A DNA stretch of 64,000 bases from Escherichia phage naam. The notes beneath the pieces were generated by a model. That model worked only from the letters and a program-made list of their open reading frames with translations, was not told the origin of the DNA and made no database searches. The stretch lies in the sequence record MN850630.1; one strand, given 5' to 3'. Position numbers and translations under genes: made by a program. How positions within the stretch are numbered: position 1 is the stretch's first letter; every line of letters begins with the position of its first letter. Of the stretch, positions 55,854 to 62,143 are shown piece after piece.

Positions 55854-56159
55854 TATTTTAAGTTATCAGGTTGCCAGAGATCAGGAGGATTTCTAAAATG
55901 GATTTCCTCCTTTTGATATTTTACCTACCAGGATATTTTAAAATCCTTAGAAAATCAGAAAATGGATCGAAAACTAAAATGGATTTTTCAGAGCAGGCAC
56001 GACGAGATGAACCACTCATCCTATCGTCTGCACCATATTCCAGACCACCATTACAGATTTCCCGCACATGCTCACACCCTTCTACTAGAACTTCCCCCAC
56101 TTACCCTTGACCTTTTATAGTAATAATCCAACCACTACCTTGAAGTTGTGGCGCAGCTT

Positions 56160-56345
56160 TCCAAGTACTCGATCTGTTTTTCGTTTCAAAGATTGAATTT
56201 TCTGAAAATTTTTCTCGATAAATTTCTCAGTACTCGATCTGTTTTTCGTTTTCTGAATCGGATTTTCTGGAAATCGTTCCGGCTCTCGACCTGAAATTTT
56301 TGGGGACGAAATCGATTTTTCGTTTTCAGAAATGGATTTTTAAAA
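56160..56345. repeat. Tandem direct repeats (about 65-bp period; two near-identical copies plus one degenerate), iteron-like
   Basis: agtactcgatctgtttttcgttt at 56164 and 56229; third diverged copy around 56307-56340; AT-rich, with recurring aaaatggat words nearby. Confidence 0.7.
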
Positions 56346-56401
56346 TTTCTATATGGGAATATTTTAGTGGATACTATTTTATAGGAAATTGTTACGGAGG
56401 G

Positions 56402-56419
56402 TAATTAGCGTGCTAATTA
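56402..56419. repeat. Palindrome taattag-cgtg-ctaatta (candidate protein-binding site)
   Basis: 7-bp inverted arms around a 4-bp centre in an AT-rich stretch. Confidence 0.5.
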
Positions 56420-56457
56420 AATTTATTAAATGCGAGGAGTTCTCATTTAGAATTTTG

Positions 56458-56700
56458 AATGATAATCATTCTCGTTTGCAGAATAACGGGCAGGCCCGGT
56501 GATTGTCTCCCGGCCCCTGTTGCCCCGGCTTGTTATTATAGTATCACACAGGACAAAGAAGGCAAGGATTTTTTGCATAAATTTTTAAATGATAATGATA
56601 ACCGTTCTCATTTTATGCAGCGCCCATCCCCGGTGGTTGTCTCCCCCGTCACCGGTGCCTGCCGTCCTTTCGATAGGTATATTGTGCCACCTGGCGGGGC
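56458..56700. repeat. Two diverged copies of a roughly 100-bp element (aatgataat...ccggtg.ttgtctccc...)
   Basis: Copy A about 56458-56545, copy B about 56588-56700; the ORF-track 95-aa ORF here is probably not coding. Confidence 0.55.
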
Positions 56701-56866
56701 CGCTGTCAACACCTTTTCAAAAAATTTTTCTAACCTGATGCGCTAACCGTTGCAACCTGGCGGGGCCAGCCTGGCAGGACCTAACTGACCAGGTGGGAGA
56801 GGGTGAAATCTTGCAAACCTGGTAGGCCCATGCTGTAGGGTAAACAATTGAAGAGGAGGTACAAAA

Positions 56867-57109
56867 ATGAAAGGTAATGCTACTCACCTGGGAAATGTAG
56901 CGATTAATGACGCTGAGGCTATCACCCTGGTTGAAAAGGCTATGGCGGGAGCGTTGGAACATAAAGAAGAGTACGAAAAAATGATGGTTAACCTGGCAGG
57001 GGCGGCGGCTGGAGAATTCTGCCCAAAAAATAATTCTAACCAATGGTTGACAGCTCGGATAGTTCTGTTATTCTTATCCTCGCAAGGTGAACAACACCAC
57101 ACTAATTAA
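56867..57109 (+). CDS. Early small protein, hypothetical
   Basis: 80 aa ORF with strong RBS gaagaggagg; first gene after the repeat region. Confidence 0.55.
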   Translation: MKGNATHLGNVAINDAEAITLVEKAMAGALEHKEEYEKMMVNLAGAAAGEFCPKNNSNQWLTARIVLLFLSSQGEQHHTN

Positions 57110-57126
57110 CAGAGAGGATAAAAATC

Positions 57127-57324
57127 ATGAACGCCTACGGAATTAAAGTACGTCGCAACACTCGCCAGGCCGTCACCGATCAAATGGTTTGCCAGGTGGA
57201 CGTAACCATCAACAACGGGCAAGGCCTTTATAAATTCCGTCGCGGTCAGAGCTATACCCGGCAACAGCTTAATCGTTGCGCCCTGACAAAAGGCCAGATC
57301 AACCACTGGTTTAATAAAAAATAA
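57127..57324 (+). CDS. Early small basic protein, hypothetical
   Basis: 65 aa; RBS context agaggataaaaatcATG recurs at other early genes. Confidence 0.5.
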   Translation: MNAYGIKVRRNTRQAVTDQMVCQVDVTINNGQGLYKFRRGQSYTRQQLNRCALTKGQINHWFNKK

Positions 57325-57327
57325 GTA

Positions 57328-57356
57328 TTGACATATAGTCCGACACCAAATACACT
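57328..57356 (+). promoter_or_regulatory. Sigma70-like promoter (TTGACA-17-TACACT)
   Basis: Begins 4 nt after the upstream stop codon; A-rich upstream. Confidence 0.6.
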
Positions 57357-57388
57357 AAAAGCACAAAAGACACTAAGAGGATAAAATC

Positions 57389-57787
57389 ATGAAAACCACT
57401 ACCTTTAATTTTGATAATGCGGACTTTTCTTTTTCTGATGTCAAGAACTGCCGCCGTGATCGTGGATTCTACAAGGCTTATAATCTGGTTGGCCTGGACG
57501 ATGACAATAATTTGCACGAAGTAGCTGAGATCCGGTATTATGCCGCCGCCAGCGGGAACACTCACTACTGCGTGTTTTGGATTCACGACAACAAGAACAA
57601 TAAGTACGGTTATACTGGCGGCAAGGCGAGCGGTCACGGTTACGATAAAGCTAACGCAGCACTTGAGAGCGCATTAAATGCTATGGGGATCACTGCCGAC
57701 GGCTGGATCTACGAAGAAGAGTTTTTGTCGGCACTTGCTGACCACCTGGGCTATAAAAAACACATTGTAACATGCGCCCACGAATAA
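57389..57787 (+). CDS. Early protein, hypothetical
   Basis: 132 aa ORF with RBS aagagga. Confidence 0.55.
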   Translation: MKTTTFNFDNADFSFSDVKNCRRDRGFYKAYNLVGLDDDNNLHEVAEIRYYAAASGNTHYCVFWIHDNKNNKYGYTGGKASGHGYDKANAALESALNAMGITADGWIYEEEFLSALADHLGYKKHIVTCAHE

Positions 57788-57793
57788 AAATCA

Positions 57794-57821
57794 TTGACAC
57801 GCTGCAAAATTTAAGTAAACT
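57794..57821 (+). promoter_or_regulatory. Sigma70-like promoter (TTGACA-16-TAAACT) followed by 5'-UTR hairpin
   Basis: Hairpin ggcggga-atgtt-tcccgcc at 57832-57850 between the -10 and the RBS. Confidence 0.6.
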
Positions 57822-57869
57822 AGACACAAAAGGCGGGAATGTTTCCCGCCAGCACAAAGGAAAAAGATC

Positions 57870-58265
57870 ATGAATAAGAACGTACGCCGCATCATGAACG
57901 AACTGGCAAACGATGAAAAAATTATTGATATGCATTTGGTCAACATTTGCCGCCGTTGTGTAACATATAACAACCGCGCCGCAAAAGCGCGTGAGATGAA
58001 CGCAAAAGGCACCTTAAAGCCCTTTCAGGTGGTTGTAAAATCTATAACTAGCGCAGCAGGCCAGGCGCAGGACCACAACAACGAGAGCGCTAATATTGAT
58101 CCGTCTTACGTAATGAAACGGATCCGGACTTGCAAGAATAAAGAGCAGGTATATAACGTCATAGATTGGCTGGACTCCCTGGGCGATGTGGTTTACAATA
58201 GGTTTTCTGCAGCTATCGAGATCCAGCTTGACAGATTGGACGGGAAAGTACTAAAAACTTATTGA
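57870..58265 (+). CDS. Early protein, hypothetical
   Basis: 131 aa ORF with RBS aaggaaaaag. Confidence 0.55.
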   Translation: MNKNVRRIMNELANDEKIIDMHLVNICRRCVTYNNRAAKAREMNAKGTLKPFQVVVKSITSAAGQAQDHNNESANIDPSYVMKRIRTCKNKEQVYNVIDWLDSLGDVVYNRFSAAIEIQLDRLDGKVLKTY

Positions 58266-58313
58266 GTTTATTTTTAGATGGCCTTGACACCAGGGCCATC
58301 AATAAAGTAAACT
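58266..58313 (+). promoter_or_regulatory. Repeated 47-bp element, copy 1: palindrome GATGGCC-N10-GGCCATC around TTGACA, then TAAACT
   Basis: Starts right after the upstream stop; palindrome arms at 58277-58283 and 58294-58300; -35 at 58284-58289; -10-like at 58308-58313. Confidence 0.6.
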
Positions 58314-58345
58314 AACCACAGTTGAGCGGAAAAGGAGGCTTAAAG

Positions 58346-58465
58346 ATGAGCACTACACGCCAGCACACAAAGGTAACCATCATCGTTTGCATCATTGGGT
58401 ACATCCTGGCGCAAATGTTGATGGGTAGCGCCAACGGTGTCGCAAAATTTTTCTTAAACTTTTAA
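58346..58465 (+). CDS. Small hydrophobic peptide (39 aa), hypothetical
   Basis: Not in the ORF track; ATG after RBS aaaaggagg; product MSTTRQHTKVTIIVCIIGYILAQMLMGSANGVAKFFLNF has one predicted TM helix. Confidence 0.4.
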   Translation: MSTTRQHTKVTIIVCIIGYILAQMLMGSANGVAKFFLNF

Positions 58466-58493
58466 TTGACAAGCTAACTTAAATCGATATAAT
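58466..58493 (+). promoter_or_regulatory. Consensus sigma70 promoter (TTGACA-16-TATAAT)
   Basis: Followed by a small 5'-UTR hairpin (gggaa...ttccc) and the strong RBS of the acidic protein gene. Confidence 0.75.
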
Positions 58494-58544
58494 AAGCACA
58501 TAAACGGGAAAACTTCCCAGAACACACAAAAGGAGAAAAACACC

Positions 58545-58886
58545 ATGACTACTATGACCGCCTCAGAAAAAGCTATGCAGATCGCTGAACTGAAAAAACA
58601 GATCGCAGACCTTGAGAATAAGATCGATAACTTTGAAATCGACGAGGACAAGTACGACGAAAACTATGATGAATGGTTAGACGAGATCTACGGCGAAATT
58701 ATGATCGGAAACATTTCTTTTCTTCCGTCGCGTATCCTCAAGGAGCTAGATCCTATCGCTTACCGCTGCGGATTTAGCGACTACATCGACAGCCTGGATA
58801 TTGAGGACGATGAAGAATACCAGGAATTACAGACAGAGTTAGAAGAAGCAAAAGAAGAGCTTGCGGAGCTGGAAGAAAACGAGTAA
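58545..58886 (+). CDS. Highly acidic 113-aa protein, candidate DNA mimic / anti-restriction (Ocr-like in concept)
   Basis: About one third D+E by hand count, very few K/R, coiled-coil-like segments; behind a perfect consensus promoter. Confidence 0.5.
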   Translation: MTTMTASEKAMQIAELKKQIADLENKIDNFEIDEDKYDENYDEWLDEIYGEIMIGNISFLPSRILKELDPIAYRCGFSDYIDSLDIEDDEEYQELQTELEEAKEELAELEENE

Positions 58887-58934
58887 GCTTATTTTTAGAT
58901 GGCCTTGACACCAGGGCCATCAATAAAGTAAACT
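58887..58934 (+). promoter_or_regulatory. Repeated 47-bp element, copy 2
   Basis: Identical core ttatttttagatggccttgacaccagggccatcaataaagtaaac immediately after the stop codon. Confidence 0.6.
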
Positions 58935-58975
58935 TTATACTGTTAACACTGAACTAATGCATAGGAGTTAAAACC

Positions 58976-59221
58976 ATGGCAGCACTAATCACCAAATATT
59001 ATGCCCCTACCAACACCAAAAGCGCCCGTATCATGGTAAAAGGCTTCGGACGTAAAAAGGTGTACACCTGGGATTATGCCTTAGACACGGAAGACAACTA
59101 CACCAACGCGATGACCGATTTTATTAATGATCTGAACACGCGGATCTTGACAAATTATAAAATTACCGATATTGCCTATATAGGGGAAGGCGGGATCTGT
59201 TTTGTCGGTATCGTCAAATAA
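58976..59221 (+). CDS. Early protein, hypothetical
   Basis: 81 aa ORF with RBS aggag. Confidence 0.55.
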   Translation: MAALITKYYAPTNTKSARIMVKGFGRKKVYTWDYALDTEDNYTNAMTDFINDLNTRILTNYKITDIAYIGEGGICFVGIVK

Positions 59222-59296
59222 GCTGTTTTTTCGGTGGTCCTGGTAGCAGGGCCATCTATAAAGATAGTTTATCAATACAATGAAAGGAGAAAGTAC

Positions 59297-59650
59297 ATGA
59301 TCAGCGGGGCAAGTTTTATTATTGGCGCTATTGCTACGGCTTTAATTGTAAACAAGATCCAATCTAAAAACGAAAAAGATAGCAACGCCCTTACAGAATA
59401 CCCGTTTTGGGTATTCAACGACAATGAAGACTATATTATCAAGTACAAGAATGAGAAGGGCGACCAGGTAACACCGCGACCGATCCCGGCTTACAAGATG
59501 CAAGAAACACTATACCGCCTAAAGGCTGGAGGCGCAAAAATCGTAGACTTTTGGGGATACGATCACACAGATCAGGAAGTTATAAAGCGCCGTATCCGGG
59601 CTATTCAGGCCAATATTGAAGTTAGCAAGGGGGGAATATATGAAGATTAA
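59297..59650 (+). CDS. Early protein with N-terminal transmembrane helix, hypothetical
   Basis: ATG at 59297 with RBS aaaggagaaag (track start 59234 lies in the degenerate repeat copy); MISGASFIIGAIATALIV. Confidence 0.5.
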   Translation: MISGASFIIGAIATALIVNKIQSKNEKDSNALTEYPFWVFNDNEDYIIKYKNEKGDQVTPRPIPAYKMQETLYRLKAGGAKIVDFWGYDHTDQEVIKRRIRAIQANIEVSKGGIYED

Positions 59651-59837
59651 TTTTGAGAAGATTGTAAAGCGATCTCATGATTCCGAAGAGCTGCCGGAAC
59701 GCCGCCAGCGCAACAATAAACTGAATAAGCCAAAAAGATTTGGGAAGATCTGGCGGAATCATTATGATCGCAAATTACCGGGCCTGCTTTTGGAACGTGA
59801 ACGACAGGCGGAACGATACCGCCACAAAGGCAAATAA
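59640..59837 (+). CDS. Small highly basic protein, hypothetical
   Basis: ATG at 59640 with RBS aagggggga (track start 59616); Arg/Lys-rich. Confidence 0.45.
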   Translation: MKINFEKIVKRSHDSEELPERRQRNNKLNKPKRFGKIWRNHYDRKLPGLLLERERQAERYRHKGK

Positions 59838-59845
59838 CAACCAAC

Positions 59846-59874
59846 GCCCCGCCATTGTGCGGGGCTTTTTATTT
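59846..59874 (+). terminator. Rho-independent terminator
   Basis: gccccgc-cattgt-gcggggc followed by tttttattt. Confidence 0.8.
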
Positions 59875-60018
59875 CTATCCTACGAATAGCGCCCCTGGTT
59901 GGCCCTGTAAGCGCCAAAAAGGCCCCACCTATACAATCGCCCCCCTTTAACCTGAAAACATCGCTTAGGGCCGTTTTATGGCGTTAAAAATATCATTGAC
60001 AGTGATTTTATTTAAAGC

Positions 60019-60046
60019 TTGACATCTTAAACAGGTTAGCTATACT
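60019..60046 (+). promoter_or_regulatory. Sigma70-like promoter (TTGACA-16-TATACT)
   Basis: A second TTGACA lies 23 nt upstream (59996). Confidence 0.65.
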
Positions 60047-60078
60047 AACCACATCAAAGAGAGAAAGGAGTAAACGCC

Positions 60079-60339
60079 ATGCGTAAATTAAAAAATTTTG
60101 ATAAAGTTGATGTTGTCCTGAATAATTTTTACTACTGCAACAACAAGGCCATTTGGTGGCGTGATAGTTCCACCGATAAAGTTAAAGCTCGCTTTCTCCA
60201 AGGGCACTGGCAAGGCCGTCCAGTGATTAAAATACTGGGGCAACTGGTAGCGTTTAAAAATTGCCGCCGTGTTGATGACGTTGAAGAGATCTTGAACATT
60301 TTACGCCACAATAATTTAAAAAATAGTGTTGACAAGTAA
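60079..60339 (+). CDS. Early protein, hypothetical
   Basis: 86 aa ORF with RBS aaaggag. Confidence 0.55.
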   Translation: MRKLKNFDKVDVVLNNFYYCNNKAIWWRDSSTDKVKARFLQGHWQGRPVIKILGQLVAFKNCRRVDDVEEILNILRHNNLKNSVDK

Positions 60340-60356
60340 ATCTCGATAAGTATACT
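60329..60356 (+). promoter_or_regulatory. Sigma70-like promoter (TTGACA-16-TATACT) followed by 5'-UTR hairpin
   Basis: -35 overlaps the upstream gene's 3' end; hairpin ggcgggaaaacttcccgcc at 60367-60385. Confidence 0.65.
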
Positions 60357-60413
60357 TAAACACACAGGCGGGAAAACTTCCCGCCACTAACAAAGAAAAT
60401 AGGAGAAAATATC

Positions 60414-61037
60414 ATGACCACCGTTAACATTACCACAGGTTACAATTTATCTTTCGACGTGCTGACCGACGAACAAAAAGAAAAAGCTATTGAAATGGTC
60501 CGCGAAAGAGAAGAACACAGCGGGGATAATTTTTTTGCAGAAAGTGTAATTGAACACTATAAAGAATATGTCTTTCCAGAGTACGGCCTTGAAGATACCG
60601 AAGTACGTTGGTCCGGCTTTTGGTGTCAAGGCGATGGCGCGTCAATCAGTGCTGAAAACGTGGATTTAGAAAAATTCTTGCGTAAAGTAAAGGCCCTGAC
60701 CAAGTTCCGATCAATTCGTCACTTGTTCGGCACAATGCACGATGGCGAGTTATCAGCCAGTGTTGAACGTATCCCGTTTAGCCATTATCATCACGAAAAC
60801 ACAATAGGAGGGTGCATCGATACTAATTGGCTAGACCTGACCACCAAGCAAGAGGACAAAGTTGAAGAGCTGGAAGAGCTGATCACCGAGACGGTACGGG
60901 AGCTATCACGCAAGGTTTACGTAGACCTGGAGGAGGCCTATCTTGAACAGTTTACTACCGAAAACCTGATCGGCCTTATTGAAGCCAATGATTGGCGGTT
61001 TGATGTGGATGAATATGGGGAGATGAGTTTTTCATAA
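60414..61037 (+). CDS. Acidic early protein (207 aa), hypothetical
   Basis: ORF with RBS aggagaaaa; D/E-rich. Confidence 0.55.
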   Translation: MTTVNITTGYNLSFDVLTDEQKEKAIEMVREREEHSGDNFFAESVIEHYKEYVFPEYGLEDTEVRWSGFWCQGDGASISAENVDLEKFLRKVKALTKFRSIRHLFGTMHDGELSASVERIPFSHYHHENTIGGCIDTNWLDLTTKQEDKVEELEELITETVRELSRKVYVDLEEAYLEQFTTENLIGLIEANDWRFDVDEYGEMSFS

Positions 61038-61045
61038 ATAAAGTG

Positions 61046-61073
61046 TTGCAATAATCTAAAAACCTGCTATATT
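61046..61073 (+). promoter_or_regulatory. Sigma70-like promoter (TTGCAA-16-TATATT) followed by 5'-UTR hairpin
   Basis: Hairpin at 61084-61103 whose loop contains the ATG wrongly used by the ORF track. Confidence 0.6.
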
Positions 61074-61127
61074 AAAAACTCAAGGGGCGAGATGACTTGC
61101 CCCCCACAAAACAAAGAGGAAAACATC

Positions 61128-61508
61128 ATGAAAAACACTACTAAAGCTATTGACACCGTTATGTTTAACCTGGTTACATTCCGTGAAGATATGAAAGATC
61201 TTCCACGTGAAACAGTGTGCGACCATATCGAAAACTATCGCAAACTAATCAAAGAGTTGCCTTTAAAACGTGACCAGTACGCGGCTAACGCTATGCTTAA
61301 CGCCATGATCAAAAAGATGATCCAGTGTGATTTAACTCTGGCCTATGATTATGCAGGCGGTCGTTTTGCAGTATACAATCAGCCCGTGCCCGGTATGAGC
61401 ACCACCGAAGAATTGCACGCGTTAAATCTGAAACAAGATGTATGGGATAACATGCCCCGCGTGGTGGTGTGGGCAGAAAGCGGAAAGATTTACGGCGATA
61501 ATTTTTAA
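61128..61508 (+). CDS. Early protein, hypothetical
   Basis: ATG at 61128 with RBS aagagga (track start 61092 is in the UTR hairpin loop). Confidence 0.5.
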   Translation: MKNTTKAIDTVMFNLVTFREDMKDLPRETVCDHIENYRKLIKELPLKRDQYAANAMLNAMIKKMIQCDLTLAYDYAGGRFAVYNQPVPGMSTTEELHALNLKQDVWDNMPRVVVWAESGKIYGDNF

Positions 61509-61572
61509 TCAGGTAACAGGCGGCATATTTGCCGCCTTATTGTTAAACAGAACTGCAAAAGAGGTACATAGA

Positions 61573-61944
61573 ATGGAATTTATTATTTTGGCTGTAGTAG
61601 TTGCCTTGTTCAACGCCTGGATCGCTGGCAAGATGGGTAGATCCGCCTTTTTATGGTTTATTATATCTATTTTCCTGGGGGTGGTTGCAACTATTGTACT
61701 TGTTATCCTTGCAATTGTTGACAAGGGGAATAATAGAAAGGGTAAAGTATTTTCAGACCTGTACGACGCTCAAACATTTGTCAACGCCTACTACAGCGAT
61801 CTTCCAGTCTCCCTACGTTGCAGCCTTGCACAACAGGTTTTCGATGAAGCTAAAACCAGAGATCACGCCCATGAGATTTGTTTAACTGAGGCGGATCGCC
61901 TATTTGAGAGGAATAGAAAATATGTGGACCAGCCGTTTAAATAA
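61573..61944 (+). CDS. Small membrane protein (two predicted TM helices), hypothetical
   Basis: ATG at 61573 with RBS aaaagagg (track start 61438 overlaps the upstream gene); MEFIILAVVVALFNAWIAG and LWFIISIFLGVVATIVLVILAIV. Confidence 0.5.
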   Translation: MEFIILAVVVALFNAWIAGKMGRSAFLWFIISIFLGVVATIVLVILAIVDKGNNRKGKVFSDLYDAQTFVNAYYSDLPVSLRCSLAQQVFDEAKTRDHAHEICLTEADRLFERNRKYVDQPFK

Positions 61945-62143
61945 TGCCACGTTAATTAACCCCTTTAGTGAAGATTTGAAGCCAGCCGCCTGGCGGGATG
62001 GATTCAATAACGAAAGCTTTATTTTCAGGCCTGATCTTAAGGAATTTTATAACAATGGATCGAACAACGACAGAGATAATTTTTCTTGTAATGTGCGTGG
62101 TGATAATACTCCTGGGGGCCATTGCAAACCACGTCACTGCTAA
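61922..62143 (+). CDS. Hypothetical small protein (frame uncertain)
   Basis: ATG at 61922 after gagagg; an alternative overlapping frame (61998-62180) encodes a TM peptide, so the assignment is ambiguous. Confidence 0.3.
   Translation: MWTSRLNNATLINPFSEDLKPAAWRDGFNNESFIFRPDLKEFYNNGSNNDRDNFSCNVRGDNTPGGHCKPRHC

What the first reader, a model, noticed from the sequence alone, without database searches (positions are those of the whole stretch)
58545..58886. Strongly acidic 113-aa early protein behind a perfect consensus promoter: candidate DNA-mimic anti-restriction factor
By hand count about 36 of 113 residues are Asp or Glu and only about 10 are Lys or Arg, giving a large net negative charge. 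Segments such as ELKKQIADLENKIDNFEIDEDKYDENYDEWLDEIYGEI and DIEDDEEYQELQTELEEAKEELAELEENE look helical. The gene has a TTGACA-16-TATAAT promoter, a 5'-UTR hairpin and a strong RBS. Size, charge and early expression parallel DNA mimics such as T7 Ocr, which block restriction-modification or other DNA-binding defence enzymes. There is no detectable sequence similarity to Ocr, so if this is a mimic it would be a new family. The 207-aa acidic protein at 60414-61037 is a second candidate.
Basis: inference. Interest (0 to 1): 0.55.

Follow-up and report, generated by a model that had tools for sequence, protein, structure and literature searches.

The report
Very acidic early phage protein family
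This is a real, strongly conserved, extremely acidic small protein made early in infection by an rV5-like E. coli phage; it belongs to a very large, unnamed phage protein family with no known fold or function, and it is a credible but unproven candidate for a decoy that disables a host DNA-binding defence protein.

Summary
The 113-aa ORF (58545-58886, +) has 36 Asp/Glu against 9 Lys/Arg (net -27, pI 4.05) and is the most acidic of 86 ORFs in the window. It sits behind a perfect TTGACA-16-TATAAT promoter (2 in 64 kb; 0.02 expected) and an AAGGAG RBS; the 5'-UTR hairpin is weak. The window is an rV5-like Vequintavirus. The gene is under purifying selection (dN/dS 0.06-0.15).

Early expression is supported by homologues: PAK_P3 gp86 lies in the RNA-seq-defined early region, and two podophage members lie upstream of the phage RNA polymerase gene.

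Published BASEL plating data show vequintaviruses escape type I restriction about 1,000- to 100,000-fold better than their site counts predict, yet stay sensitive to type II/III. That fits an Ocr-like function, but a related phage without this domain escapes equally.

Verdict: a new family of acidic early proteins. A decoy role is plausible; the anti-restriction function is untested.

The parts
58466..58493 (+). Sigma-70-type promoter: TTGACA (58466-58471), 16-nt spacer, TATAAT (58488-58493)
   Evidence: Scores 12/12 in the consensus scan. There are 2 exact sites in 64 kb against 0.02 expected. Conserved in orthologous loci L001 and L012.
58505..58519 (+). 5'-UTR hairpin CGGGAAAACTTCCCA (5-bp stem, 3-nt loop); a weakened copy of a cassette hairpin
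   Evidence: The motif CGGGAA-N4-TTCCC occurs at 3 sites against 0.07 expected. The cassette alignment is A4. Fold is -6 kcal/mol, z -1.2 here, against -14.6 and -14.9 kcal/mol with z about -4 in the two paralogous cassettes.
58530..58535 (+). Ribosome-binding site AAGGAG, with 9 nt between GGAG and the ATG
   Evidence: Read directly from the sequence.
58545..58886 (+). Coding sequence of the 113-aa acidic protein (PHROG 9294), stop codon included
   Evidence: dN/dS is 0.06-0.15.
58560..58628 (+). N-terminal amphipathic helix (aa 6-28), net charge -1, heptad hydrophobics I13 L16 I20 L23 I27 (F30); it pairs with the C-terminal helix as an antiparallel stalk
58644..58802 (+). Conserved core mini-domain (aa 34-86): alpha1, beta-hairpin, alpha2, alpha3; motif YDxxLDExYG...SRxLKELDPIAYRCGFSDY; net charge -10
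   Evidence: Alignments A1-A3. The core folds on its own with pLDDT 91.5. 3,629 representative clusters match. Per-position conservation.
58812..58877 (+). C-terminal poly-Glu amphipathic helix (aa 90-111): 11 acidic and 1 basic residue; heptads Y92 L95 L99 (A102) L106 L109
   Evidence: The arms are variable or absent across the family, while C-terminal flanks average 39% acidic residues.
58270..58313 (+). Upstream copy of a 44-nt stem-loop-plus-promoter repeat (ATTTTTAGATGGCCTTGACACCAGGGCCATCAATAAAGTAAACT); it drives the small membrane ORF that precedes the target
   Evidence: Identical to 58891-58934. The hairpin folds at -17.8 kcal/mol. TTGACA-18-TAAACT is listed.
58891..58934 (+). Downstream copy of the same 44-nt repeat, starting 5 nt after the target's stop codon; it drives the next gene (58976)
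   Evidence: The same module lies directly upstream of the roughly 50%-identical homologues in L019 and L020.
60329..61037 (+).
   Evidence: Cassette homology. The protein is PHROG 5162 with no Pfam, NCBIfam or PDB hit. The family is narrow. Net charge -25, which is only -0.12 per residue.

Best explanation
The gene encodes an early polyanionic decoy protein. Shown: it is a real, purifying-selected gene behind a consensus host-RNAP promoter. Its product is a compact alpha-beta-beta-alpha-alpha mini-domain mounted on an antiparallel coiled-coil stalk whose C-terminal strand is half glutamate. The mini-domain defines a very large phage family in which strong net negative charge is near-universal, and helix alpha-1 presents a stripe of positions conserved as 'acidic' with free D/E interchange. 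Homologues lie in regions shown or expected to be transcribed first. Inferred: soon after DNA entry the protein accumulates and binds, stoichiometrically and largely through charge, to a basic surface of a host protein that normally holds nucleic acid, blocking it. The mini-domain would supply the conserved docking surface, and the variable acidic arms or tails would add charge, reach and possibly oligomerisation. The most likely target is a DNA-binding defence enzyme, with type I restriction-modification the leading single candidate, but the target is not identified.
For: Composition and outlier status. Consensus promoter and RBS, conserved in orthologues. Purifying selection. Confident models of the whole protein and of the core alone. 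Family size and lack of annotation. Family-wide acidity: 97% of 127 small representatives have net <= -10, median -0.21 per residue, none is neutral, and C-terminal flanks are 39% acidic. Acidic stripe at positions 34, 39, 42, 43, 46 and 47, 75-96% acidic with D/E interchange. Early context: PAK_P3 gp86 scores 45.7 bits against the core HMM and lies inside the RNA-seq-defined early region gp74-gp112, with its own TTGACA-16-TAGAAT promoter and 5' hairpin (PMC4933390). Lepni01 gp04 and HTVC109P gp03 lie upstream of the phage RNA polymerase gene and are the only strongly acidic early proteins there. The domain also occurs, sometimes in tandem, in large mosaic phage proteins. [quoted passage not shown] A compatible phenotype: vequintaviruses with 10-14 EcoKI sites plate at EOP 0.06-1.1 on EcoKI and 0.12-1.1 on EcoCFT_I, while unprotected siphoviruses with 3-7 sites plate at 1e-4 to 1e-5 and 1e-2 to 2e-3. 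There is no site avoidance: 8 EcoKI sites in the window against 7.8 expected.
Against: There is no direct functional evidence for any family member. The strongest conservation (S62, D69-P70, A72, Y73, C75/V, G76, D79, Y80) looks like helix caps and core packing, so it does not identify an interface. Three basic positions (R63, K66, R74) are also conserved. Gene-neighbourhood analysis of 34 independent viral loci found no recurrent partner. Type I escape is also shown by phi92-like phages, which lack the domain, and by the Felix-O1-like Bas63, whose genome was not checked for it, so the phenotype is not attributable to this gene. Acidity alone is a weak predictor of mimicry.
Confidence: 0.4

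Rival explanations
1. [quoted passage not shown]
For: It has the same size and charge as Ocr (113 aa and net -27, against 116 aa and about -28 for Ocr, the latter from memory). It is driven by a host-type promoter. In two autographiviruses a family member occupies the pre-RNAP early region where T7 has gene 0.3, and no Ocr or SAM hydrolase is recognisable there. Vequintaviruses escape type I but not type II or III restriction. No known anti-restriction family is present in the window. A Lar-type restriction-alleviation gene lies 3.5 kb from two multidomain members.
Against: Bas60, which has no homologue (best 6.4 bits), escapes type I restriction as well as vequintaviruses do, and so does the Felix-O1-like Bas63, so the phenotype has other possible causes. 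There is no fold or sequence similarity to Ocr or ArdA. The family extends to phages of actinobacteria and Pelagibacter, and a single target type is not demonstrated across them. The window encodes an N6/N4 DNA methylase, and only about half of the genome was examined.
Confidence: 0.15
2. A host-takeover factor that uses the specific surface of the conserved mini-domain to bind a conserved non-defence host machine (RNA polymerase, replisome, nucleoid protein, RecBCD/AddAB), with the acidity being secondary, for example for solubility or for tuning affinity.
For: There is very strong residue-specific conservation in alpha2-alpha3 (LKELDPIAYRCGFSDY), including conserved basic residues. The family is found in phages of very different hosts, which favours a universally conserved target. 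Early-region context. Many early phage ORFans act this way (general knowledge).
Against: Near-universal strong negative charge and the D/E-interchangeable stripe argue that charge itself is selected. For RecBCD specifically, vequintaviruses are not hit by the P2 Old system (EOP about 0.5-1.7). Old is reported to respond to RecBCD inhibition (abstract of 10.64898/2026.07.10.737580), but this is weak evidence.
Confidence: 0.25
3. A phage-internal role: an acidic chaperone, assembly factor or regulator that binds a basic phage protein or phage nucleic-acid enzyme and does not target the host.
For: The domain is fused into large mosaic phage proteins encoded next to terminase, portal and head genes, and into polyprotein-like proteins with a C-terminal membrane anchor. 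Acidic chaperones for basic proteins are common in biology (general knowledge).
Against: There is no conserved phage partner gene in 34 loci. The family is present in myo-, podo- and siphoviruses with unrelated replication and structural modules. The stand-alone genes sit in early, accessory-type regions.
Confidence: 0.12
4. An enzyme, a metal-binding protein, or a sponge for a small signalling molecule.
For: D69 and D79 are invariant and Cys75, Tyr73 and Tyr80 are nearly invariant. Small phage sponges for immune signals are known (general knowledge).
Confidence: 0.04

Closest known systems
T7 Ocr (gp0.3), DNA-mimic inhibitor of type I R-M and BREX
   Same: Almost identical size and net charge. 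All-or-mostly helical. Made from a host-RNAP promoter at the start of infection. Family members sit in the equivalent pre-RNAP early slot of two autographiviruses. The host phage shows type-I-specific escape from restriction.
T7 gp5.9, an acidic coiled-coil DNA mimic that blocks RecBCD (from my own knowledge of the literature)
   Same: A small, very acidic phage protein in which a coiled coil displays carboxylates; it is a precedent that an acidic coiled coil can imitate DNA.
   Different: gp5.9 is a coiled coil without a globular domain. Here the coiled-coil arms are the variable, dispensable part. Vequintaviruses are not sensitive to P2 Old, which argues weakly against RecBCD inhibition.
[quoted passage not shown]
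   Same: Small, highly acidic proteins of a large virulent coliphage, with unknown primary function, described as lacking obvious sequence or structural similarity to Ocr or to each other.
   Different: tblastn found no T5-like hit: every Escherichia-phage hit is >= 80% identical, that is, a vequintavirus. Whether this protein triggers PARIS is unknown.
ArdA and other plasmid or transposon DNA-mimic anti-restriction proteins
   Same: An acidic protein deployed at the moment foreign DNA establishes itself.
   Different: No Pfam ArdA hit. Only one plasmid-collection hit, which is a phage-like 137-kb record. The multidomain members examined are phage-encoded, not on conjugative elements.
Domains of phage 'polyvalent proteins' (Iyer et al. 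2017, PMC5512222)
   Same: The core occurs, sometimes in tandem, within large mosaic phage proteins alongside other small domains of unknown function such as DUF3849 and DUF6894, the kind of architecture that paper links to the earliest phase of invasion.
   Different: No Pfam family, LPD or otherwise, matches the core. The great majority of family members are stand-alone small proteins expressed from early promoters, not parts of large mosaic proteins.

Membership tests
Ocr family (Pfam Ocr; T7 gp0.3) | Detectable sequence similarity to Ocr | tested here: not met
   The Pfam scan of the protein at E <= 1, and of 25 core sequences, lists no Ocr family.
Ocr family (Pfam Ocr; T7 gp0.3) | Ocr fold | tested here: not met
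Ocr family (Pfam Ocr; T7 gp0.3) | Inhibits type I R-M by occupying the DNA-binding groove | not testable with these tools
   Only indirect evidence exists. Vequintaviruses escape EcoKI and EcoCFT_I, but so does Bas60, which lacks the domain.
ArdA anti-restriction family | Sequence similarity to ArdA | tested here: not met
   No ArdA family appears in the Pfam results or among the window ORFs.
DNA-mimic proteins (a functional class, not a homologous family) | Small size and high net negative charge (pI about 3-5) | tested here: met
   113 aa, net -27, pI 4.05. The trait is family-wide.
DNA-mimic proteins (a functional class, not a homologous family) | Surface acidic positions conserved as charge, not as residue identity | tested here: met
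   Positions 34, 39, 42, 43, 46, 47 and 85 are 75-96% acidic with D/E interchange, on the face of alpha-1 opposite its hydrophobic residues.
DNA-mimic proteins (a functional class, not a homologous family) | Carboxylate spacing and overall dimensions that match the phosphate backbone of DNA | not testable with these tools
   Model coordinates are not exposed to scripts. Only the secondary structure and per-segment charge are known.
DNA-mimic proteins (a functional class, not a homologous family) | Competes with DNA for a DNA-binding protein | not testable with these tools
   This needs biochemistry, and no partner is known.
PHROG 9294 and the wider core-domain family (PHROGs 9396 and 37123; unnamed) | Significant match to the family profile across the core motif | tested here: met
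   PHROG 9294 at E 2e-53; PHROGs 9396 and 37123 at about 1e-10 over aa 38-101. The window protein scores 95.3 bits against the core HMM.
Early (host-RNAP-transcribed) phage genes | Sigma-70 consensus promoter directly upstream | tested here: met
Early (host-RNAP-transcribed) phage genes | Transcript present in the first minutes of infection | tested here: inconclusive
   No transcriptome was found for an rV5-like phage. The homologue PAK_P3 gp86 lies in the RNA-seq-defined early region, and podophage homologues lie upstream of the phage RNAP gene.
Polyvalent-protein-associated domains (Iyer et al. 2017) | Occurs as one module of large multidomain phage or plasmid proteins | tested here: met
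   P0110 (712 aa, DUF3849 plus 2 core copies), P0199 (819 aa) and P0072-P0099 with tandem N-terminal cores. P0110 and P0199 are phage-encoded.
Polyvalent-protein-associated domains (Iyer et al. 2017) | Identity with one of the described LPD domains | tested here: inconclusive

The most novel reading that the evidence does not exclude
The ~50-aa acidic mini-domain is a previously unrecognised, pan-phage anti-restriction or anti-defence module with a new fold. It would be the most widespread DNA-mimic-type decoy known, used as a stand-alone early protein by myo-, podo- and siphoviruses of Gram-negative and Gram-positive hosts and as tandem modules in large mosaic phage proteins. In rV5-like phages it would be the gene behind their unremarked, selective immunity to type I restriction.
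Probability: 0.15. Interest if true: 0.8.

Novelty: new variant of a known kind. Interest (0 to 1): 0.55.

Why it matters
Small acidic early proteins such as Ocr are among the most potent and broad phage counter-defences, and defence systems such as PARIS have evolved to sense them. This gene belongs to a family of several thousand sequence clusters that has no Pfam model, no solved relative and no published function, yet it sits in the early or accessory regions of many therapeutic-type phages (rV5-like coliphages, PAK_P-like Pseudomonas phages). If it disables a defence, it would be a widely distributed determinant of host range and a new protein scaffold for blocking DNA-binding enzymes.

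Separately, the re-reading of the BASEL data shows that several groups of large coliphages are essentially immune to type I restriction despite normal site counts. That is an unexplained phenotype, and this gene is a concrete, cheap-to-test candidate for it.

Tried and rejected
1. Homology to known families. Pfam, NCBIfam, PADLOC and PDB-sequence searches gave only coiled-coil or low-complexity noise (GvpG, SbcC, LmuB, designed helical proteins), all far below curated cut-offs. The database labels 'gas vesicle protein GvpG', 'SbcCD ATPase' and 'Zn-ribbon protein' attached to some homologues are artefacts of that noise.

2. Fold search with the whole model. It returned only generic two-helix hairpins, so I modelled the core alone. 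The core has no significant PDB match, and only uncharacterised homologues appear in BFVD. The afdb50 library was unavailable.

3. Guilt by association. 148 neighbour-protein clusters from 34 viral loci showed no recurrent partner. The one repeated neighbour, PF17338 GP88, is lineage synteny and is absent from the window.

4. Natural-variation test of the type I phenotype. Bas60 lacks the domain yet escapes type I restriction, so the test does not single out this gene.

5. RecBCD-inhibitor idea. It is weakened by insensitivity to P2 Old.

6. Enzyme or metal-site idea. It is weakened by Cys75 being replaced by Val and by the cap-like positions of the invariant Asp and Ser residues.

7. The 207-aa 'second candidate'. 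It is a narrow family with no annotation and ordinary acidity, and I did not pursue it.

8. Literature. No paper mentions the PHROGs, PAK_P3 gp86 function, or vequintavirus anti-restriction.

9. Known ncRNA or tRNA explanation for the 5' hairpin. None found.

Full report
**What the window is.** The 5 kb around the finding is 95-98% identical to more than 100 rV5-like (Vequintavirus) E. coli myophage genomes, for example phage nom at 97.8% and BASEL phages Bas51-Bas55. In these records the region is a run of same-strand small 'hypothetical protein' genes.

**Checking the observation.** The ORF at 58545-58886 (+) exists and encodes the quoted sequence.
- It has 13 Asp + 23 Glu and 7 Lys + 2 Arg, giving net -27 and pI 4.05.
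- Among 86 non-overlapping ORFs in the window it is the clear outlier: -0.239 charge per residue against -0.144 for the next. It also has the most negative absolute charge, ahead of proteins of 500-1,300 residues.
- The promoter TTGACA-16-TATAAT is exact. Two such sites occur in 64 kb against 0.02 expected.
- The RBS is AAGGAG, with 9 nt between GGAG and the ATG.
- The 5'-UTR hairpin is only a 5-bp stem (z = -1.2). However, it is a degenerate copy of a hairpin, CGGGAA-N4-TTCCC, that occurs at exactly three places in the window (0.07 expected). Each copy lies inside a homologous ~95-nt promoter-hairpin-RBS cassette, in front of the genes at 57870, 58545 and 60414.
- The gene is under purifying selection, with dN/dS 0.06-0.15 among orthologues. 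The promoter is conserved in close relatives.

**Anatomy of the protein.** AlphaFold2 with a 48-sequence alignment gives a confident model (mean pLDDT 91.3). It has a long N-terminal helix (6-28), a compact unit of helix 34-49, beta-hairpin 52-59, helix 61-68 and helix 70-83, and then a long C-terminal helix (90-111).
- Both helices show 3-4 heptad spacing of hydrophobic residues.
- Charge by segment is -1 for the N-helix, -10 for the core, -10 for the C-helix (11 acidic of 22 residues) and -5 for the linkers.

**The conserved element is the core, not the arms.** Homologues fall into a vequintavirus group (>= 83% identity) and many divergent proteins.
- Alignment shows a nearly invariant central motif, YDxxLDExYG...SRxLKELDPIAYRCGFSDY. 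The N- and C-terminal arms vary, are replaced by other extensions (some Zn-ribbon-like), or are absent in 64-aa marine proteins.
- The core modelled alone folds with pLDDT 91.5.
- A profile of the core finds 3,629 representative clusters (50% identity level) at E <= 1e-3 and 1,418 at E <= 1e-10 in 1.84 billion proteins.
- There is no Pfam, NCBIfam or PADLOC family. Three PHROGs of 'unknown function' cover it.
- tblastn finds it in 182 sequenced phages of Escherichia, Pseudomonas, Vibrio, Klebsiella, Proteus, Providencia, Serratia, Aeromonas, Stenotrophomonas and Pelagibacter.

**Acidity is a family trait.** Of 127 small representatives, 97% have net charge <= -10 (median -21, or -0.21 per residue) and none is neutral. 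C-terminal flanks average 39% Asp+Glu.
- Position by position across 146 representatives, helix alpha-1 carries a stripe at residues 34, 39, 42, 43, 46 and 47 that is 75-96% acidic with free D/E interchange. It lies opposite the helix's hydrophobic face.
- By contrast S62 and D69-P70 sit at helix starts like caps. A72, C75 (Val in 14%) and G76 look like packing residues. K66 and R74 are conserved basic positions.
- So charge is selected on one face. The most striking motif is probably structural, and a catalytic or metal site is unlikely.

**Timing.** No transcriptome for an rV5-like phage was found. Three homologues give indirect support.
- PAK_P3 gp86 scores 45.7 bits against the core HMM. 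It lies in the early region gp74-gp112 defined by RNA-seq (PMC4933390). It has its own TTGACA-16-TAGAAT promoter followed by a 5' hairpin.
- In the autographiviruses Lepni01 and HTVC109P the family member lies upstream of the phage RNA polymerase gene, in the host-transcribed class I region.
- In each of those two phages it is the only strongly acidic early protein (109 aa, net -28; 75 aa, net -11), and no Ocr or SAM hydrolase is recognisable.

**Fusions and neighbours.** A few members are large mosaic proteins with one to three core copies.
- P0110 (712 aa) carries DUF3849 and P0199 (819 aa) carries DUF6894. P0072-P0099 have tandem N-terminal cores, modules separated by AETFGAE-like linkers, and a C-terminal membrane anchor.
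- P0110 and P0199 are phage-encoded next to terminase, portal and head genes, with a Lar-type restriction-alleviation gene 3.5 kb away. The two phages are related, so this is one observation.
- This resembles the 'polyvalent protein' theme tied to the earliest phase of invasion (PMC5512222).
- A systematic neighbourhood survey of 34 viral loci and 148 neighbour clusters found no recurrent partner.

[quoted passage not shown] The raw data are more nuanced.

| Phage (group) | EcoKI sites | EOP on EcoKI | EcoCFT_I sites | EOP on EcoCFT_I |
|---|---|---|---|---|
| Bas50-Bas52 (vequintavirus) | 10-14 | 0.06-1.1 | 4-6 | 0.12-1.1 |
| Bas01 (unprotected siphovirus) | 3 | ~1e-4 | 6 | ~1e-2 |
| Bas02 (unprotected siphovirus) | 7 | ~1e-5 | 7 | ~2e-3 |
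| Bas60-Bas62 (phi92-like) | 12-14 | 0.1-0.7 | 7-9 | 0.46-1.3 |
| Bas63 (Felix-O1-like) | 9 | 0.75-1.5 | 9 | 0.3-0.8 |

- The same vequintaviruses plate at 1e-4 to 1e-3 on EcoRI, give no plaques on EcoRV, and are strongly hit by the type III systems.
- The window shows no avoidance of EcoKI sites (8 found, 7.8 expected).
- Selective escape from type I systems is what an Ocr/ArdA-type function would produce, and no known anti-restriction family is present in the window.
- However, phi92-like and Felix-O1-like phages escape just as well. A six-frame HMM search of 149 kb of Bas60 finds no homologue (best 6.4 bits).
- Vequintaviruses are not hit by P2 Old, which argues weakly against a Gam/gp5.9-like RecBCD inhibitor.

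**Interpretation.** I think the most likely mechanism (about 0.4) is a polyanionic decoy. The protein would be made at once from a strong host promoter and would bind a basic, nucleic-acid-binding surface of a host protein. The conserved mini-domain, with its acidic stripe, would be the docking unit, and the variable acidic arms would add charge and reach.
- A defence enzyme is the most likely target. The strict Ocr-like reading, inhibition of type I R-M, gets about 0.15.
- A specific, non-mimic host-takeover binder gets about 0.25.
- A phage-internal chaperone or regulator role gets about 0.12.
- An enzyme or sponge role is unlikely, at about 0.04.

**Novelty and score.** The kind, a small acidic early phage protein likely acting as a decoy, is known. 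This family, its fold, its modular use and its breadth are not described, and no member has a tested function. I file it as a new variant of a known kind, with interest 0.55. It is a strong, cheaply testable anti-defence candidate and a large unannotated family, but nothing yet shows an unexpected mechanism.

**The second candidate.** The 207-aa ORF (60414-61037) shares the regulatory cassette. It is otherwise a narrow, vequintavirus-restricted family of ordinary acidity, so it is a much weaker candidate.

Noticed in passing
window 58270-58313 and 58891-58934: An identical 44-nt module (a 10-bp stem-loop that contains a TTGACA -35 box, followed by CAATAAAGTAAACT) flanks the unit made of a small membrane ORF plus the acidic gene. 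The same module lies directly upstream of the roughly 50%-identical homologues in two other ~140-kb phages (L019, L020). It resembles the 'promoter-early stem-loop' cassettes proposed to shuffle genes in T4-type phages (resemblance recalled from memory).
   Followed up: partly
window 57794-57869, 58466-58544, 60329-60413: Three homologous ~95-nt regulatory cassettes (TTGACA-16-TAnAnT, ACACA, hairpin (GG)CGGGAA-N4-TTCCC(GCC), CACAAAG, RBS) drive three unrelated small genes. The hairpin motif occurs 3 times against 0.07 expected. Two copies have strong 8-bp stems (z about -4). PAK_P3 gp86 has an analogous promoter-then-hairpin leader. The function could be mRNA 5' stabilisation or a regulator site; it is unknown.
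   Followed up: partly
related data: BASEL S1 Data and S5 Table (PMC8594841): Vequintaviruses (Bas50-52), phi92-like phages (Bas60-62) and Felix-O1-like Bas63 plate at EOP about 0.06-1.5 on the two type I R-M systems despite having 9-14 EcoKI and 4-9 EcoCFT_I sites. Siphoviruses with 3-7 sites are restricted 1e-2 to 1e-5. The paper attributes weak type I effects to the rarity of sites. The data suggest unrecognised type I evasion in several groups of large virulent coliphages.
   Followed up: partly
window 58322-58465 (annotated as a 39-aa CDS in relatives, starting at the ATG at 58346): A tiny hydrophobic ORF (MSTTRQHTKVTIIVCIIGYILAQMLMGSANGVAKFFLNF) lies immediately upstream. Its stop codon abuts the -35 box of the acidic gene's promoter. 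It is probably a single-pass membrane peptide.
   Followed up: no
hits to window 57000-62000 in the phage collection: Seventeen GenBank records labelled 'Campylobacter phage' (host C. jejuni) are about 95% identical to this E. coli rV5-like sequence. That suggests mislabelled hosts or contaminating coliphages in that data set.
   Followed up: no
protein P0067 (Logan assembly), relative to window 57106-57306 (-) and 58800-58886 (+): One database protein fuses the product of the minus-strand ORF at 57106-57306 to the last ~29 residues of the acidic protein. It is either an assembly chimera or a rearranged or deleted phage variant.
   Followed up: no
proteins P0072-P0099; locus L009 8001-10514: These are polyprotein-like proteins of 200-840 aa with two or three core-domain copies (N-terminal in most). 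Their modules are separated by repeated AETFGAE / AETFEA linkers, and several end in an EF-hand-like DRNKDGKIS motif and a C-terminal transmembrane helix. One is encoded on a 145-kb contig of almost entirely unannotated genes (one DUF87 ATPase neighbour). The linkers look like protease or processing sites.
   Followed up: partly
loci L049 15649-15873 and L051 6298-6525: A Lar_restr_allev (PF14354, type I restriction alleviation) gene lies about 3.5 kb from the large core-domain-containing proteins P0110 and P0199 in two related siphophage-like contigs.
   Followed up: no
window, elsewhere (ORF set; Pfam summary): The window also encodes an N6/N4 DNA methylase, a macro-domain protein, a T7 gene-1.1-like protein, PIF1-like and DnaB-like helicases, a family A DNA polymerase and tail or tail-fibre genes. 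The methylase could contribute to restriction evasion.
   Followed up: no
window about 55870-57100: This stretch has only short, overlapping, low-quality ORFs on both strands. Relatives annotate several 35-97-aa CDSs here. No tRNA or Rfam family was found. Its coding status is unclear.
   Followed up: partly
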